Shown: piece after piece, positions 3,408 through 28,407 of the stretch
Layout: every line of letters starts with the position of its first letter
Numbering within the stretch: position 1 is the stretch's first letter
From: a virus
Strand: one strand, 5' to 3'
Virus record (IMG/VR): IMGVR_UViG_3300013099_000018
Location: 1-64,000 of that record
DNA: 64,000 bases
Made by a program: the position numbers and the translations under genes
The notes under the pieces: model-generated
What the model was told of the DNA's origin: nothing
Seen by the model: only the letters and a program-made list of their open reading frames with translations
Databases searched by the model: none

Positions 3408-5699
3408 TTAGATATTACTTACAACTTCAATATCTTTTTGCTCTGGAAAGCCATTCTCTTCGATGTCGTCTAAGAGCTTAAGCCATTTCTCTCCTACGAT
3501 GTCCCATGTTGCGTTTTCGAGAACCCATTTTCTCATGTTTCTCCCGTGCTTCTTGGCTCTTTCTGGATACGAGTAGTAATACCAGAGTGCAAAGGCTATA
3601 TCTTCTACGTTAAGCACAGCTTGTCTTGAGGATGTCCTATTCATCCACATGAACGCTACTGGTTTGATTCCTAAGCCTCTTTCCTTGTAGATTACATTTG
3701 CTGTAATCTCGTAGACTTCTTCGCCAAGCAATTCTCCCGTTGCTCCCCAATCCGTAGCTATTGCTGGAGTTTCGCATAAGCCACTCTCTACCAACACAAT
3801 CTCAAATGAGCCTCCTTTTACAGTGTTTACTAAGCAATTAGCCTTGCAATAGAGCTTTCTCATTATTTCAGACGGTAGATAACCATTCGTAACCTTGAAC
3901 ATGACCTTATCCCTTACCTTTATGTTGTATTTATCTTCAATCGCATCTATGATTTCATAGAGGTTATATCCACCGTATTTTATCGGTTCTGTGTTAATGT
4001 AGAGAAATGCATTTGGCTCAACATCTCTTAGGAAGAGAGCGAAAGCCTCTATGATTTCTGGAACATTCTCTCTTATCCCATTGTTATCTACAACTGCTAC
4101 GACAAAGAAATCTATATCATCTGGTATGAAATCCACTTGAGGGTCTTTCTCTGGATAGTAGATGTTTGGGTCAGCACCGTGAGGTATTGGTTCTGTAATC
4201 TTGTGCTTTGGAACATCTCTACTTTGTTCAAGTATCTTTTTACCCCAATTGGTCATCGGAACGAGGAGTTTTACACCTTCGGAACGCATCATCGGTATGT
4301 AACTCCTTTGGACAGGGTCATGGTCTAAGATGCAATTATGAATCAAGACTTTGTTTGCGAAATAGTTTCCTGTTGTTGTGGTAATATCATATACAATCCC
4401 TTCGATGTTTTTCTCACGATATATTTTGATGACCTTCTTGCAGTTTGTAATTTCTTTACCTCTTCCCAAATTCTCAATTCCTCTTCCGTGTATGCATCTT
4501 TGTATTTTTGTTTCATTCTCGATTCCAAGAATTTCAACACCAACTCTGCACGTTTTCTCTTTGTGATTAGATACTTGCGTAACTCTTTCAGAATTGGGTA
4601 AACTTTGTATCCATGAATTTGAATTCTGTATATTGGTCTCTTCGCTTTTGTCCCTTCCCGTTGTCCTTTCCAATGTTTCACATCCAACCATTTGGCAATT
4701 GTCTCTATGGTTTCTTTGTGCGTGTTCACAAATGCTATGTGAGGATTCAATAAGTATCTCGGTTTCCTTTGCTTGTTGTAATGTTTCACCACAGTTATAG
4801 TTATTGTCCCCTCTCCATCCAGAAATCCCGCAAGATAACCCTTTTGCCACTCTTCTAAATTCTGAATTACTTTCTCCATTTTCGCAATAGATTGCTCTAT
4901 TTTCGTTCCTTTGGTTGTAATTAAATCCGACATGCTCTTTACTAAACCCAATCTTGTTGCTTTGCGGATTACTGCTTTCTCCGACCTGTTCAATGCTTTT
5001 GCTATTTGCTCTACAGTCATTTTCGTATAATTTCTCTTTAAGAATTCCACTTCTTGCTCTGTCCATCTCCTCTTCATCAATAGTTATTTTGGTCGATGGT
5101 CTATAAATATGTAACCCAACAACTCTATCACCTACTCTCAAATCTGAGGCTTGCTTCCAACCATCAATCGTATAGATTTCATGGTCTTCCGTGCATTTCA
5201 ATTTAGAACCATCTTCAAACTCTATAACCACTAAATCTTCATCCGTTGGTATAATATGAATTGCTAAGACTTTTGTCCAAACTACTTTGCCAACCTCAAA
5301 ATCAAATCCCAAAACTCTATCCTCTATAGTTAAATCCCTAATCTTTTTGATGCCATTTGGAGTTATGACTTCCGTATCACCTTCAACACACCAATGTATG
5401 ATGTTGGCATCTTGAAGTTTTGCTATTTGCCTTGAGATTACCCATCCGTCAAAGTGTAATATTTGAACATCGTATTCGTTGTATCTTTCGAAGAATACAG
5501 GATGAACTAATGTTCCATTTCCACCTATGATTTTAACTTGCCTATCTTCAATCATAAACGGGATTTCTGCACCTTCGTAACCAAAGTAAGAATAGATGTC
5601 CACTTCGTGTTTCTTTGCGAGATGATATGCTAAGTAGCGAGTGCAAACTCCGAAACCAGAGCTTACGAATGGTGCTACTGAATAGTATGCGATTTTCAT
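3408..5699 (-). CDS. GT4 (GT-B) glycosyltransferase precursor with one intein (about 411 aa after splicing)
   Basis: MKIAYYS...SGFG N-terminus, IPHGADP, KGGSFEIVLVES...PAIATDWGATGE motifs; intein from Cys104 (CVEGDT) to IHN, followed by Cys. Confidence 0.9.
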   Translation of the reverse strand: MKIAYYSVAPFVSSGFGVCTRYLAYHLAKKHEVDIYSYFGYEGAEIPFMIEDRQVKIIGGNGTLVHPVFFERYNEYDVQILHFDGWVISRQIAKLQDANIIHWCVEGDTEVITPNGIKKIRDLTIEDRVLGFDFEVGKVVWTKVLAIHIIPTDEDLVVIEFEDGSKLKCTEDHEIYTIDGWKQASDLRVGDRVVGLHIYRPSTKITIDEEEMDRARSGILKEKLYENDCRANSKSIEQVGESSNPQSNKIGFSKEHVGFNYNQRNENRAIYCENGESNSEFRRVAKGLSCGISGWRGDNNYNCGETLQQAKETEILIESSHSICEHAQRNHRDNCQMVGCETLERTTGRDKSEETNIQNSNSWIQSLPNSERVTQVSNHKEKTCRVGVEILGIENETKIQRCIHGRGIENLGRGKEITNCKKVIKIYREKNIEGIVYDITTTTGNYFANKVLIHNCILDHDPVQRSYIPMMRSEGVKLLVPMTNWGKKILEQSRDVPKHKITEPIPHGADPNIYYPEKDPQVDFIPDDIDFFVVAVVDNNGIRENVPEIIEAFALFLRDVEPNAFLYINTEPIKYGGYNLYEIIDAIEDKYNIKVRDKVMFKVTNGYLPSEIMRKLYCKANCLVNTVKGGSFEIVLVESGLCETPAIATDWGATGELLGEEVYEITANVIYKERGLGIKPVAFMWMNRTSSRQAVLNVEDIAFALWYYYSYPERAKKHGRNMRKWVLENATWDIVGEKWLKLLDDIEENGFPEQKDIEVVSNI
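4343..5077 (-). CDS. single-motif LAGLIDADG homing endonuclease with an N-terminal Myb/HTH-like domain, overprinted in the +1 frame of the intein
   Basis: GYLAGFLDGEGTITI motif, FVNT, LRKYLITKRKRAELVLKF; N-terminal RRWTEQEVEFLK...IAKALNRSEKAVIRKA; ATG at 5077 (track TTG 5080). Confidence 0.85.
   Translation of the reverse strand: MKRRWTEQEVEFLKRNYTKMTVEQIAKALNRSEKAVIRKATRLGLVKSMSDLITTKGTKIEQSIAKMEKVIQNLEEWQKGYLAGFLDGEGTITITVVKHYNKQRKPRYLLNPHIAFVNTHKETIETIAKWLDVKHWKGQREGTKAKRPIYRIQIHGYKVYPILKELRKYLITKRKRAELVLKFLESRMKQKYKDAYTEEELRIWEEVKKLQTARRSSKYIVRKTSKGLYMILPQQQETISQTKS
5098..5110 (-). promoter_or_regulatory. putative archaeal TATA box for a leaderless transcript of the nested endonuclease
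   Basis: Minus strand reads ATATTTATAG, then 23 nt, then ATG(5077); similar spacing to TTTATATAA-22 nt-ATG at 52952-52983. Confidence 0.6.
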
Positions 5700-25258: not shown

Positions 25259-26602
25259 AAAATAATAGCGGTGCGGAAATTTCGCTTTTCAAAGCGGAGA
25301 GGAGTACCGCAACACTTAAATATCTAAATTTTTCACAACTCAATGAATGGTTACAATATCTGTGAAATTTAAGCTTGAACTTACGAAGGAGCAAAAGCAG
25401 AAGATTTTGGATTTAGCCAAAAAGTATAGAGATGCATTTAACGAAATTAGCGAATACGCTTTTAACAATCGTGTTTTTGACCATATTAGTTTGCATAAGG
25501 CTTTATACTACAAACTCAAAGAGAAGTATGGTTTTCAGTCTCAGATTGCTATTTCAGTTATCAGAGAGGTTGCTCAACATTACGATTCTGTCTTTAACCA
25601 GTTAGCTGAGAAATTTAATATCTCGAAGAGAAATCGTAAGAAGTTAATCGAACTATTCTATAAAGAGATTGGAAAACCAATTAGAAGGAAAAAACTGATT
25701 GTTAAGCTCGTTAAAAGAAGGAGCTATGATTTAAAGCTAAATCCAAGAGTTTGTTCAATCTCGGTTATCGGTGAAAGATTGAAGAAAATACCTTACTATG
25801 GTTGGAACAAACACTACGAATATATTGAGAAATACGGTTACGGAGATGCCATTCTTTATTACGAGAGGAGTAACAAGCTCTGGTATCTTATTGTATCTGT
25901 AGATGTTCCTGATAAGGAACTCAAGCCTAAGAAGGTTGTCGGAGTTGATATAAACGAACCTTCCAATAGTTTTGTAGCTTTGCATGATAGTTTAGGCAAA
26001 TCTAAGCTTATCGAATTCTCTCAACAAGTTTTGAGATTGAAATCCCATTATCAGAAGTTACGCTCACAGCTTCAGGCTAAAGGCACTCGCTCCGCTAAGA
26101 GGCGTTTGTTGTCTCTTAGCGGAGTCGAGAAACGGCTGGTTAGAAATTTCCTCCATGTCGTTGCTAAGAAGATTGTAGTAGAGAACTCACCTTGTGTTTT
26201 CGGTTTGGAGGACTTAGAAGGCATTAGAGAATTCAGAGAAAACAACGCTAAGTTCAAGGGAGAGAAAAGAAGGTTGTTTAGCCAGTGGTGTTTCAGAGAG
26301 CTTCAAACCCTAATCGAGTACAAAGCTAAGCTCTACGGAAGTAAGGTAGTTTATGTGAATCCGCAATGCACATCAATAAGTTGTCCAGTATGCGGTTACA
26401 CTGCTAAAGAAAATAGAAATGGTAAAGAATTCGAATGTAAGAATTGTGGATTCAAAGAACATGCAGATATTGTCGGTGCTAAAAATATTATGTTAAGGGT
26501 TTTGAAATCTCTTCAAAACGGGGCGTTTGTCAGCCGTCCCGATGCTCCCTCTCCGTTAGGAGAGGTCGAGCAAGCTCCGCCCTTTAGGGCGGGGTAGCTG
26601 AC
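25259..26602 (+). mobile_element. IS200/IS605-family solo tnpB element (IS1341-like, no tnpA)
   Basis: Left hairpin CGCTTT-TC-AAAGCG; right hairpin CCGCCC-TTTA-GGGCGG followed by GGTAGCTGAC; candidate TAM TTCAT at 25254-25258; removing the element restores an ORF. Confidence 0.75.
25347..26597 (+). CDS. tnpB: RNA-guided endonuclease TnpB
   Basis: RuvC-I VVGVDIN, RuvC-II GLEDL, zinc finger CPVCG...CKNCG, RuvC-III HADIVGAKNI all intact. Confidence 0.93.
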   Translation: MVTISVKFKLELTKEQKQKILDLAKKYRDAFNEISEYAFNNRVFDHISLHKALYYKLKEKYGFQSQIAISVIREVAQHYDSVFNQLAEKFNISKRNRKKLIELFYKEIGKPIRRKKLIVKLVKRRSYDLKLNPRVCSISVIGERLKKIPYYGWNKHYEYIEKYGYGDAILYYERSNKLWYLIVSVDVPDKELKPKKVVGVDINEPSNSFVALHDSLGKSKLIEFSQQVLRLKSHYQKLRSQLQAKGTRSAKRRLLSLSGVEKRLVRNFLHVVAKKIVVENSPCVFGLEDLEGIREFRENNAKFKGEKRRLFSQWCFRELQTLIEYKAKLYGSKVVYVNPQCTSISCPVCGYTAKENRNGKEFECKNCGFKEHADIVGAKNIMLRVLKSLQNGAFVSRPDAPSPLGEVEQAPPFRAG

Positions 26603-27120: not shown

Positions 27121-28407
27121 TTACTTTTGAGATGCTTCAATATCTACTACTGTCTTGAATTTATTTACAGTAGATATTATTTCTCTGAGTATTTGTTCAT
27201 CACAACCCATTCTTTTGTATTTTAGAATTAAATCGTCATCCGTTAGAAGTCTTTTCCATTGTTTGTGTTTTTTATGAGGCTTATAATGCATATAAACGTA
27301 TTCCTTTGCAAATGCTATATACCCTAATCTGAAATTACCATGAACACCATATTTGTTGAGGATAGGTTTAACATGCTCAATAATATTCTGTAACCTTGCT
27401 TGATGTTTGCCACCTTCCCATTTCATCTTATCTCTCTTCTGCAAGAAGAAGACTCTTTGGTATAGTGTATGCTTTGGTGGTGGAATGTGTTTCGTAATTT
27501 CTCTTATCTCTGGTCTTACTTCTACGTCTAAACCTTTTGTAATTGGGGTCTTTGATGAACGTTGCTTGAAGAATTTAACTTTCCAAGCGAGTGTTTTGGA
27601 TAGAGGTCTCAGATGCTTCTCCTTGTACTCCTTCTCTTTAGGTATTACTCTGGCATAATTCACTCTTGCGTAGTTTACTTGGGTTTCATAAGGGAATTTG
27701 GTGTAGATTGTTCTTTCTGTCTTGAAGTCATCTATATATCTCATTTTACCTAAAGCCATCTTGTAACGTCTTCTTTTGATTGGTTTCATGACTTTGGCAA
27801 CTCCTACTACTGTGAATCCAACATAAGAACAATTCAATATTTTACCTTCTACTTTCATTAGTGTTTCAAGCATTGCATCAATGTAACCACTACTTACACC
27901 TTTCTTTGACAGAATTTCCTTGTGAGCCTCTAAGTAGTTTTTTAGTGCTTGGCTTACTTTCTTATAAGCGGGAATGCTCTTCTCAGTAGTTTGATATCTC
28001 ATGTTCCAAATAAACCTTGCAAGGTCTTTCCAGAGTATTTCTGGAGGGTCATAAACTCCTTGATTGTATTTCGTTTTACCATAGTAAGCTTTGGGTATTG
28101 GTTGCCAATCAACTAAAAAATCAGGCATAGCTAAATCAATCTCAAATTTAGGAAGGTTAAACTCGATTGCTAAATCCAAATCTAACTTGAGATAGTCAAA
28201 AGCATCAAGAGGGAAATGTAAATCTACCGCTAAGTAAAAATCAAGCAAGAAATTAAAACTGAGGTTGAAACCAATAGATAAGTCTATTTTCGGTAGTCTA
28301 AATTCCCATCTAAGCATGTTTAAGCTTATCCAGTCTAAGCTTGTTGTAAAATCAATGTATTTCTCTTTACGGTCAATTATGCTTTCAAAAGGGTCTTTCC
28401 TAATCAT
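27121..28407 (-). CDS. minor structural protein with a C-terminal SIRV2-type MCP-fold domain
   Basis: VKPILNKYGVHGNFRLGYIAFAKE...KYKRMGCDEQILREII aligns with the MCP paralogues. Confidence 0.7.
   Translation of the reverse strand: MIRKDPFESIIDRKEKYIDFTTSLDWISLNMLRWEFRLPKIDLSIGFNLSFNFLLDFYLAVDLHFPLDAFDYLKLDLDLAIEFNLPKFEIDLAMPDFLVDWQPIPKAYYGKTKYNQGVYDPPEILWKDLARFIWNMRYQTTEKSIPAYKKVSQALKNYLEAHKEILSKKGVSSGYIDAMLETLMKVEGKILNCSYVGFTVVGVAKVMKPIKRRRYKMALGKMRYIDDFKTERTIYTKFPYETQVNYARVNYARVIPKEKEYKEKHLRPLSKTLAWKVKFFKQRSSKTPITKGLDVEVRPEIREITKHIPPPKHTLYQRVFFLQKRDKMKWEGGKHQARLQNIIEHVKPILNKYGVHGNFRLGYIAFAKEYVYMHYKPHKKHKQWKRLLTDDDLILKYKRMGCDEQILREIISTVNKFKTVVDIEASQK

What the first reader, a model, noticed from the sequence alone, without database searches (positions are those of the whole stretch)
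4335..5390. Intein whose homing endonuclease is a separate overprinted gene in the +1 frame
Seen: the intein has complete splicing blocks (C104...TEDH...IHN/C), but its ~220-codon in-frame middle has no recognisable domain. The same DNA read in +1 encodes a 244-aa Myb/HTH plus single-motif LAGLIDADG nuclease (YLAGFLDGEG), which stops 8 nt before the intein ends. Both frames are stop-free. A random 220-codon frame stays open with probability about (61/64)^220, roughly 3e-5, and less in AT-rich DNA, so the dual coding looks selected. Known: intein endonucleases are normally in-frame, two-motif domains, as in the other three inteins here; single-motif LAGLIDADGs are homodimers typical of introns and free-standing genes. 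Inference: a free-standing endonuclease gene invaded a mini-intein out of frame, and splicing removes the meaningless peptide. This uncouples homing from host-gene translation and would be missed by standard annotation. I cannot verify how novel it is.
Basis: partly seen in the sequence, partly recalled or inferred. Interest (0 to 1): 0.92.

Follow-up and report, generated by a model that had tools for sequence, protein, structure and literature searches.

The report
Intein with overprinted +1-frame homing endonuclease
A self-splicing protein insert (intein) in a sugar-transferase gene of a deep-sea-vent archaeal virus carries its DNA-cutting "homing" gene one base out of step over its own middle; the layout is real and kept by selection, but the kind was already described in 2025-26 preprints.

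Summary
Window 3408-5699(-) encodes a 763-aa GT1-like glycosyltransferase interrupted by a 352-aa intein (4335-5390). A 245-codon ORF (4343-5080) in the +1 frame encodes an HTH plus single-motif LAGLIDADG endonuclease.

It is not an artefact. Two other assembled variants of the whole protein (90% and 97% identical) and a 1152-nt contig keep both frames open.

The host frame is stop-free far beyond chance: 0 of 20,000 synonymous shuffles reach zero stops, against 9-18 expected.

Selection switches frame at the domain borders. In the middle, 29 of 32 inferred changes are silent in the endonuclease frame (P<=1e-8). In the C-terminal splicing block, most changes are silent in the host frame.

About 20 related vent-metagenome alleles lack the intein precisely, and intein-bearing alleles are scattered in the extein tree.

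Four other IMG/VR contigs (GC 34-60%; GT1 and DUF2201 hosts) carry homologous endonucleases in the same +1 relation inside inteins.

The kind is already described: the 2025 actinophage preprint, which cites 1998 and 2002 papers for antisense LAGLIDADG cases, and the 2026 dnaX preprint. This scan has noted it more than 100 times on other DNA. It is therefore a well-supported new member of a known kind. Expression of the nested gene is inferred, not shown.

The parts
3408..5699 (-). Host gene: 763-codon precursor of a GT1-like glycosyltransferase (411 aa after splicing)
   Evidence: ORF. Weak GT1 Pfam matches. Intein-less homologues are 411 aa.
4335..5390 (-). Intein, 352 codons (C1 ... TEDH ... 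IHN, followed by C+1)
   Evidence: Pfam Intein_splicing 55.6 bits and NCBIfam intein_Nterm. Exactly 1056 nt are skipped in an intein-less contig. Intein-less alleles join ...cattgg|tgt....
5081..5390 (-). N-terminal splicing (Hint) part, read in the host frame and under host-frame constraint
   Evidence: Only 2 of 103 residues differ between P0001 and P0010. Hint and intein_Nterm matches.
4440..5080 (-). Dual-coding middle. In the host frame it is about 214 codons of unconserved, hydrophilic spacer kept free of stops. In the +1 frame it is the functional part of the endonuclease gene.
   Evidence: 37 of 214 host-frame residues differ in P0010, and 29 of 32 inferred changes are ORF2-synonymous. 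Shuffle test.
4335..4439 (-). C-terminal splicing blocks (F/G). The ORF2 tail overlaps them and is unconstrained.
   Evidence: Of 13 listed changes, 8 are silent in the host frame and 10 change the ORF2 tail. The tail has pLDDT below 65. Relatives end near ORF2 residue 213.
4343..5080 (-). Nested +1-frame gene ORF2: HTH (Myb/GcrA-like) plus single-motif LAGLIDADG homing endonuclease. TTG at 5080, ATG at 5077, stop at 4343-4345.
   Evidence: 6566 relatives, many of them 200-300 aa and matched over nearly their whole length. AF2 pLDDT 86.5. Foldseek top hits I-CvuI, I-MsoI, I-CreI.
4808..4837 (-). LAGLIDADG motif YLAGFLDGEG (ORF2 residues 82-91)
   Evidence: D88 and G91 are invariant; Y82, A84 and G85 are nearly invariant among 33 relatives.
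5101..5107 (-). TATA-like TTTATAG, 23 nt upstream of the ORF2 ATG, with no Shine-Dalgarno site: a candidate archaeal promoter for a leaderless mRNA (inferred)
   Evidence: Sequence. TTTATA at -36..-21 occurs at 1.1% of positions in this genome. Several window genes show TATA-only upstream regions.
4326..4334 (-). C-extein side of the homing site (TGCATCTTA...)
   Evidence: Junction alignment of 15 intein-less alleles.
5391..5399 (-). N-extein side of the homing site (...ATACATTGG)
   Evidence: Junction alignment.

Best explanation
This is a mobile intein of the rare 'out-of-frame endonuclease' type, sitting in a glycosyltransferase gene of a filamentous (adnavirus-like) archaeal virus from hydrothermal vents.

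The host frame is translated straight through all 352 intein codons. The N- and C-terminal Hint blocks fold and splice out the whole insert, including a roughly 214-residue hydrophilic spacer. That spacer has no conserved sequence and is only required to contain no stop codon.

The same DNA, read one base later, is a complete gene for an HTH plus single-motif LAGLIDADG endonuclease. The enzyme most likely acts as an I-CreI-like homodimer and cuts intein-less alleles at ...ATACATTGG|TGCATCTTA..., so that repair copies the intein in.

The nested gene is most likely translated from its own ATG (5077). Transcription may come from an internal TATA-like promoter as a leaderless mRNA, which would make its expression independent of glycosyltransferase translation.

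The composite (splicing domain plus +1 endonuclease) is old and moved into this gene as a unit.

Shown: the anatomy, independence from assembly error, stop avoidance, frame-specific purifying selection, presence/absence polymorphism, and recurrence in four other loci. Inferred: splicing, cleavage, dimerisation, own start and promoter, and the direction of transfer.
For: Anatomy and family matches.

Stop avoidance in the host frame: 0 of 20,000 shuffles. The same test gives P<=2e-4 in each of four further loci.

Independent assemblies: P0010 (90% identical) and P0013 (97%) have the same length and open frames. A 1152-nt contig from run X20 spans the whole intein with 82 substitutions. Its only indels are a -1/+1 pair 5 nt apart, and it reproduces P0010. 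The intein DNA is held in 20 runs, listed under 20 study codes.

Selection in the middle: 29 of 32 inferred changes are ORF2-synonymous, against 25-37% expected (P about 1e-12 to 1e-8).

Selection in the C-terminal block: 8 of 13 listed changes are silent in the host frame and 10 of 13 alter the ORF2 tail.

Across the five loci, nucleotide conservation follows HEG codon position 2 > 1 > 3. HEG-frame identity (23-56%) exceeds host-frame identity on the same DNA (9-33%).

The ORF2 family includes many 200-300 aa proteins matched over nearly their whole length, with homology ending at residue ~213. L041 and L053 hold intergenic, free-standing copies.

AF2 model pLDDT is 86.5, and Foldseek hits I-CvuI, I-MsoI and I-CreI at E about 1e-7 to 1e-6.

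Intein-less alleles exist in about 20 loci and in the same runs. Intein-bearing alleles fall in two separately supported extein clades, each with intein-less neighbours.

The TATA-like box is at the spacing used by other leaderless-looking genes of the window.
Against: There are no RNA or protein data.

The DNA of the diverged variant was only partly listed: 40 of 154 differences. Most middle-region changes were therefore inferred from the host-frame protein by parsimony. Changes that are silent in the host frame, which are ORF2 position 2 and always non-synonymous, are invisible to that method. In the fully listed stretch 4441-4591 the count is 6 synonymous to 7 non-synonymous, so the C-terminal third of ORF2 is less constrained.

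The TATA-like motif has about a 1% chance frequency and no conservation test.

The in-frame intein model was poor throughout (pLDDT 36), so a disordered spacer is not shown structurally.

How a spacer with 9-18 expected stops first became open is unexplained.
Confidence: 0.85

Rival explanations
1. Assembly or sequencing artefact. The endonuclease is really an in-frame intein domain, and two compensating indel errors near 5080 and 4440 shifted it.
For: Only the general observation that two frames are open. The record itself is an odd, perfectly palindromic contig.
Against: With two errors the host frame would carry 9-18 stops across the middle, and it has none. Three assemblies from other data sets (P0010, P0013, the X20 contig) show the same frames and length. 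Four distant loci have the same +1 relation.
Confidence: 0.01
2. The +1 ORF is a decaying relic of an endonuclease that is no longer made. Only the host frame is under selection, and the intein is now inherited vertically or lost by recombination.
For: No expression data. The C-terminal third of ORF2 shows 7 non-synonymous to 6 synonymous changes. The divergence between intein copies is of the same order as extein divergence, so vertical descent with losses could explain the tree.
Against: 29 of 32 inferred changes in the middle are ORF2-synonymous. The ORF is intact in every variant and in four loci that are only 21-32% identical to it. Motif residues are conserved. Codon-position conservation follows the HEG frame. 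A relic in 35% GC DNA would gain stops quickly, since the +1 frame elsewhere has a stop about every 30 nt.
Confidence: 0.07
3. The endonuclease is made not from its own start but by +1 ribosomal frameshifting from the host frame. The product would be N-extein plus N-Hint fused to the nuclease.
For: There is no Shine-Dalgarno site before the ORF2 ATG in this window. The same +1 relation is conserved in all five loci.
Against: A +1-frame stop lies immediately before the TTG-ATG. All five loci have an ATG within 1-7 codons of that stop. Homology to free-standing relatives begins at ORF2 residue 3. I read Shine-Dalgarno-like G-rich runs in front of the ATG in the four bacterial-type loci. I did not look for frameshift signals.
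Confidence: 0.06

Closest known systems
Actinobacteriophage 'non-canonical' inteins with the endonuclease in another frame or on the other strand (bioRxiv 10.1101/2025.01.02.630785)
   Same: Intein splicing blocks lie in the host frame. The region between them has no recognisable in-frame fold. A complete endonuclease related to free-standing phage genes is encoded on the same DNA in another frame. The authors propose invasion of an intein by a free-standing gene and note that annotation misses such cases.
   Different: Their same-strand case is an endonuclease VII-like gene in frame 3. Their LAGLIDADG and Vsr-like cases are antisense. Here the gene is a same-strand +1 HTH plus single-motif LAGLIDADG, in an archaeal-type virus, in a glycosyltransferase rather than a polymerase, terminase, capsid or ThyX gene.
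Cyanobacterial dnaX intein with an out-of-frame homing endonuclease (bioRxiv 10.64898/2026.09.14.751524)
   Same: By its title, an intein that encodes an out-of-frame homing endonuclease. The text mentions LAGLIDADG three times and none of HNH, GIY-YIG or endonuclease VII.
   Different: A cellular replication gene in cyanobacteria. I could not read the paper because it is not held, so the frame, the domain make-up and the evidence for selection could not be compared.
Fractured genes: split inteins flanking a free-standing endonuclease gene (Dassa et al. 2009, PMC2677866)
   Same: A free-standing-type endonuclease gene sits between the N- and C-terminal intein halves. The same evolutionary model applies.
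   Different: There the host gene is broken into two ORFs and rejoined by trans-splicing. Here the host frame is continuous and kept stop-free, so splicing would be in cis.
ShiLan insertion with a hidden out-of-frame HNH endonuclease in a phage methylase (PMC11855218)
   Same: An in-frame, stop-free insertion whose other frame encodes an endonuclease. It has its own start near the 5' end and a stop within the last bases of the insert.
   Different: ShiLan has no splicing domain and stays in the protein. Here complete intein blocks are present.
I-CreI / I-MsoI / I-CvuI homodimeric LAGLIDADG endonucleases
   Same: One LAGLIDADG motif per chain and the same core fold (Foldseek E about 1e-7 to 1e-6, TM 0.55-0.70 on the target).
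   Different: Those are encoded in group I introns and lack the N-terminal Myb/GcrA-like HTH. Sequence identity is only 17-23%.

Membership tests
Intein (Hint-fold protein-splicing element) | N-terminal Cys/Ser, block B TxxH, C-terminal His-Asn followed by Cys/Ser/Thr | tested here: met
   C1, TEDH and IHN|C in the translation. Pfam Intein_splicing 55.6 bits against 35.8; TIGR01445 33 bits against 24.5.
Intein (Hint-fold protein-splicing element) | Precise in-frame insertion relative to uninterrupted homologues | tested here: met
   About 20 metagenome alleles join ...IIHW|CILD... directly. A contig skips exactly 1056 nt.
Intein (Hint-fold protein-splicing element) | Protein-splicing activity | not testable with these tools
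   Needs a reporter assay. The AF2 model of the precursor intein was poor (pLDDT 36).
LAGLIDADG homing endonuclease, single-motif (I-CreI-like) | LAGLIDADG helix with a conserved acidic residue, and the family profile match | tested here: met
   YLAGFLDGEG. D88 and G91 are invariant in 33 relatives. PF00961 30 bits against 23.1.
LAGLIDADG homing endonuclease, single-motif (I-CreI-like) | LAGLIDADG-type core fold | tested here: met
   AF2 pLDDT 86.5. Top PDB matches are I-CvuI, I-MsoI and I-CreI.
LAGLIDADG homing endonuclease, single-motif (I-CreI-like) | Homodimer; site-specific cleavage of the empty allele | not tested
Cleavage needs a bench assay.
Out-of-frame (overprinted) intein endonuclease | The endonuclease ORF lies between the splicing blocks in another frame of the same strand, with the host frame uninterrupted | tested here: met
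   Offset 619 nt, which is +1. Host frame open across all 246 codons.
Out-of-frame (overprinted) intein endonuclease | Both frames maintained by selection rather than by chance | tested here: met
   Shuffle tests. Frame-specific substitution pattern.
Out-of-frame (overprinted) intein endonuclease | The nested gene is expressed | not testable with these tools
   No RNA run was listed as a holder. Only a TATA-like motif is present.
Split intein / fractured gene | Host gene divided into two separately translated ORFs | tested here: not met
   A single 763-codon ORF in this window and in P0010 and P0013.

The most novel reading that the evidence does not exclude
The splicing domain plus +1-frame HTH-LAGLIDADG gene is one ancient composite element. 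It has kept a 200-codon 'must only stay open' spacer through divergence to about 21-32% identity. It has hopped between unrelated genes (two glycosyltransferase sites and DUF2201) and between bacterial-type and archaeal viruses. In the archaeal virus it has acquired an internal TATA promoter written inside intein codons, so that the nuclease is made from a leaderless mRNA independently of its host gene.
Probability: 0.3. Interest if true: 0.55.

Novelty: new member of a known kind. Interest (0 to 1): 0.4.

Why it matters
This is a clean natural example of dual coding in which one frame must only stay open and the other must work. The switch of purifying selection from one frame to the other can be read directly from population variants.

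It extends out-of-frame intein endonucleases to a same-strand LAGLIDADG gene in an archaeal filamentous-type virus and to glycosyltransferase targets.

It shows that 'mini-inteins' or 'decayed' inteins in annotations can hide active homing genes.

It supports the view that inteins acquire endonucleases from free-standing genes.

It gives a defined enzyme and target-site pair (ORF2 and the junction ATACATTGG|TGCATCTTA) that can be tested at the bench.

It does not open a new category.

Tried and rejected
I could not fetch the contigs of P0004, P0010 or P0013, so there is no full codon-level dN/dS for the diverged intein allele.
- Scans of viral contigs with ORF2 alone and with P0010 found nothing.
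- The word-index search with the in-frame intein found only the protein's own cluster.
- No RNA holder was listed among the sequencing runs, so nothing can be said about expression.
- Read laying printed only 40 of 154 differences. The rest of the X20 variant was inferred from protein P0010.
- The AF2 model of the in-frame intein from a 5-sequence alignment was poor everywhere (pLDDT 36). It cannot be used to argue that the spacer is disordered.
- The dnaX preprint could not be opened under either DOI form.
- I considered and rejected a sequencing artefact. I considered a pseudogene relic, +1 frameshifting and a split intein; the split intein fails its defining test and the other two are unlikely (see the rival explanations and the membership test).
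- The ORF2 tail staying open over the C-terminal block is not significant. It is about 30 codons, and at the ~9% stop rate of that frame the chance is roughly 0.06. In this window, the CAT-AAT codons of the intein's terminal His-Asn create the TAA seen in the +1 frame just past the ORF2 stop.
Full report
**1. What is in the sequence**

On the minus strand, 3408-5699 is one 763-codon ORF. Residues 104-455 (window 4335-5390) are an intein. It begins with Cys, carries TEDH and ends IHN followed by Cys. It scores above threshold for Pfam Intein_splicing (55.6 bits against 35.8) and for TIGR01445. The flanks are a GT1-like glycosyltransferase with weak Pfam matches; its homologues are 411 aa.

A second ORF, 4343-5080, starts TTG-ATG and lies 619 nt from the host start, which puts it in the +1 frame. 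It scores above threshold for LAGLIDADG_1 at residues 83-176 and has an N-terminal HTH of the Myb/GcrA kind. The +1 frame has a stop about every 30 nt everywhere else in the gene.

**2. Is it more than chance or error?**

I held the ORF2 protein fixed and shuffled synonymous codons. This puts a mean of 9.5 stops into the host frame with ORF2's own codons and 18.3 with window codon usage. Zero stops never occurred in 20,000 trials.

The mechanism is visible. Host-frame stops arise when an ORF2 codon ending in T precedes a codon starting AA, AG or GA. None of the 84 such preceding codons ends in T, against about 29% in other genes. Two compensating sequencing errors would have left those stops in place.

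The arrangement is also seen in other assemblies. The protein's 90% cluster holds P0010 (763 aa, 90% identical) and P0013 (776 aa, 97%) from other data sets, with no length change in the intein. A 1152-nt contig of run X20 covers 4266-5417 with 82 substitutions. Its only indels are a -1/+1 pair 5 nt apart at 5055/5060, and the changes listed for 4335-4600 reproduce P0010's sequence there apart from one residue. The intein DNA is held in 20 runs under 20 study codes, nearly all vent or sediment metagenomes.

**3. Which frame is under selection where**

In the C-terminal splicing block (4335-4439), 8 of the 13 changes listed for X20 are silent in the host frame and 10 change the ORF2 tail.

In the middle, 37 of 214 host-frame residues differ between P0001 and P0010. 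The comparison figures are 2 of 103 in the N-terminal Hint part and 3 of 103 in the N-extein.

I inferred the underlying single-base changes. Of the 32 outside the indel zone, 29 are synonymous in ORF2, and nearly all of them fall on ORF2 codon position 3. Among random mutations that are visible in the host frame, only 25-37% would be ORF2-synonymous. This gives P between about 1e-12 and 1e-8.

One caveat applies. Changes that are silent in the host frame are ORF2 position 2 and always non-synonymous, and they cannot be seen from the protein. In the fully listed stretch 4441-4591 there are 6 synonymous and 7 non-synonymous ORF2 changes, so the C-terminal third of the nuclease is less constrained.

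**4. What ORF2 is**

A full HMMER scan found 6566 relatives. Many are 200-300 aa proteins matched over nearly their whole length, from ORF2 residue ~3 to ~213. In the alignment of 33 sequences, D88, G91 and K174 are invariant. Most relatives end where ORF2 begins to overlap the intein's C-terminal blocks.

In IMG/VR, 75 of the 80 related loci fetched show no second same-strand frame open across the nuclease match. L041 and L053 hold intergenic copies between phage genes. The best match among deposited phages is the annotated LAGLIDADG endonuclease of Halogranum tailed virus 1.

The AF2 model is confident (pLDDT 86.5) except for residues ~215-245. Foldseek ranks the homodimeric enzymes I-CvuI, I-MsoI and I-CreI first.

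**5. The same architecture elsewhere**

Among the 80 loci, four have the nuclease ORF nested in a 629-698 codon ORF in the frame one base earlier, which is the same +1 relation as here. They are L036 (GC 34%), L040 (53%), L043 (59%) and L049 (60%).

The long ORFs are GT1 glycosyltransferases (L036, L043) and DUF2201 metallopeptidase/VWA proteins (L040, L049). L036, L043 and L049 give weak, sub-threshold Pfam Hint/intein matches. L040 gives none, and its intein is read from the C1...TPDH...HN|C motifs.

Each host frame is stop-free against 6-13 expected stops, with P<=2e-4. The five nucleases are 21-55% identical.

On the aligned DNA, conservation follows nuclease codon position 2 > 1 > 3. Nuclease-frame identity (23-56%) always exceeds host-frame identity (9-33%).

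The splicing domains are also related. For example, block F/G reads VY(D/N)(I/L)(T/A)T(T/S)(T/S)G.Y..A....(I/V)HN in this window, L036 and L043.

The composite is therefore old and has occupied several genes.

**6. Mobility**

About 20 related vent-metagenome loci carry the glycosyltransferase gene without this intein, joined as ...cattgg|tgt.... Intein-less forms occur in the same runs as the intein, and one contig skips exactly 1056 nt.

In an extein tree, P0010 groups with intein-less L005 and L006. The window groups with intein-less L016 inside another supported clade. Supported branches force at least two gains or losses. This fits homing, but repeated precise loss is not excluded.

Other alleles (L026, L027, L032) carry an ordinary in-frame two-motif LAGLIDADG intein at a second site of the same gene.

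**7. How the nuclease might be expressed**

Many genes of the window have a GGTG-type Shine-Dalgarno site. Several others have only an AT-rich, TATA-like box about 25-35 nt upstream.

ORF2 has no Shine-Dalgarno site. TTTATAG (5101-5107) ends 23 nt before its ATG, written inside the LHIYR codons of the intein. Such a motif at that distance occurs at 1.1% of positions in this genome. It is therefore a hint of an internal archaeal promoter and a leaderless mRNA, not a demonstration. By my reading, the four bacterial-type loci have G-rich Shine-Dalgarno-like runs before their ATGs.

**8. Context**

The record is an IMG/VR virus of 104,260 bp. Within the window it is a perfect palindrome around 52130|52131, with no mismatch over the 11,870 bp that can be compared. 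ORF2 recurs at the mirror position 99181-99915. The unit genome is therefore probably 52,130 bp.

A weak match to the SFV1 VP4 coat protein, several glycosyltransferases and a TnpB gene agree with earlier notes that this is an adnavirus-like archaeal virus.

**9. Comparison with what is known**

- The 2025 actinophage preprint describes inteins whose endonuclease is antisense (LAGLIDADG, Vsr-like) or in frame 3 (endonuclease VII-like). It cites 1998 and 2002 papers for the antisense LAGLIDADG type, proposes the same origin from free-standing genes, and warns that annotation misses such cases.
- A 2026 preprint is titled as reporting an out-of-frame homing endonuclease in the cyanobacterial dnaX intein. 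I could not open it.
- Related arrangements are the ShiLan hidden HNH and fractured genes with split inteins.
- This scan has logged more than 100 similar notes, several followed up with the same verdict.

**10. Verdict**

The finding is real, well supported and instructive. It is a new member of a known kind: same-strand +1, HTH plus single-motif LAGLIDADG, in an archaeal-type virus, in a glycosyltransferase target.

One thing remains unexplained: how a spacer expected to carry 9-18 stops first became open. Neither an out-of-frame invasion nor a frameshift of an in-frame domain gives a viable intermediate, unless the element passed through a split-intein stage.

Noticed in passing
window 40261-64000 (centre 52130|52131); record G000 1-104260: The window is a perfect palindrome about 52130|52131, with 0 mismatches over 11,870 bp. 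ORF2 recurs at the mirror position 99181-99915, so the whole 104,260-bp record looks like two inverted copies of a 52,130-bp unit. IMG/VR's 'inverted terminal repeats' label reflects this. Either the assembler read through a hairpin end, or the contig is a head-to-head replicative form such as is known for rudivirus-type linear genomes (from my own knowledge).
   Followed up: partly
L026:1144-3552, L027:3-2330, L032:1-1812: Related alleles of the same glycosyltransferase gene carry a different, conventional intein at a second site (KGG|C...VHN|SFEI). It has two LAGLIDADG motifs in frame. The gene is therefore an intein hot spot with two independent sites.
   Followed up: partly
L006:684-704; L008 and L016 junctions: Some intein-less alleles differ exactly at the insertion site. 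L006 has ATG (Met) instead of the +1 Cys codon, and L008 and L016 have Tyr instead of Trp at -1. These may be cleavage-resistant or splicing-incompatible target variants.
   Followed up: no
L036:2302-3192, L040:2224-3135, L043:2281-3171, L049:2221-3129: Four IMG/VR contigs (GC 34-60%) have homologous HTH-LAGLIDADG genes in the +1 frame of inteins. The hosts are GT1 (at the conserved E..A|CG motif) and DUF2201 metallopeptidase/VWA proteins.
   Followed up: yes
window 5055-5060: The diverged X20/P0010 allele has a 1-nt deletion and a 1-nt insertion 5 nt apart inside ORF2 codons 8-9. Both frames are shifted for two codons and then restored. This is a small natural example of a compensated indel tolerated in dual-coding DNA.
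   Followed up: partly
window 25347-26597: A TnpB-like gene (Cas12f1-like TNB plus OrfB_IS605 Pfam matches) lies in the viral genome.
   Followed up: no
window 27121-28407: A 428-aa ORF has a weak C-terminal match to the Sulfolobus filamentous virus 1 coat protein VP4 (E 2.5e-4, below threshold). This fits a filamentous archaeal virus.
   Followed up: no
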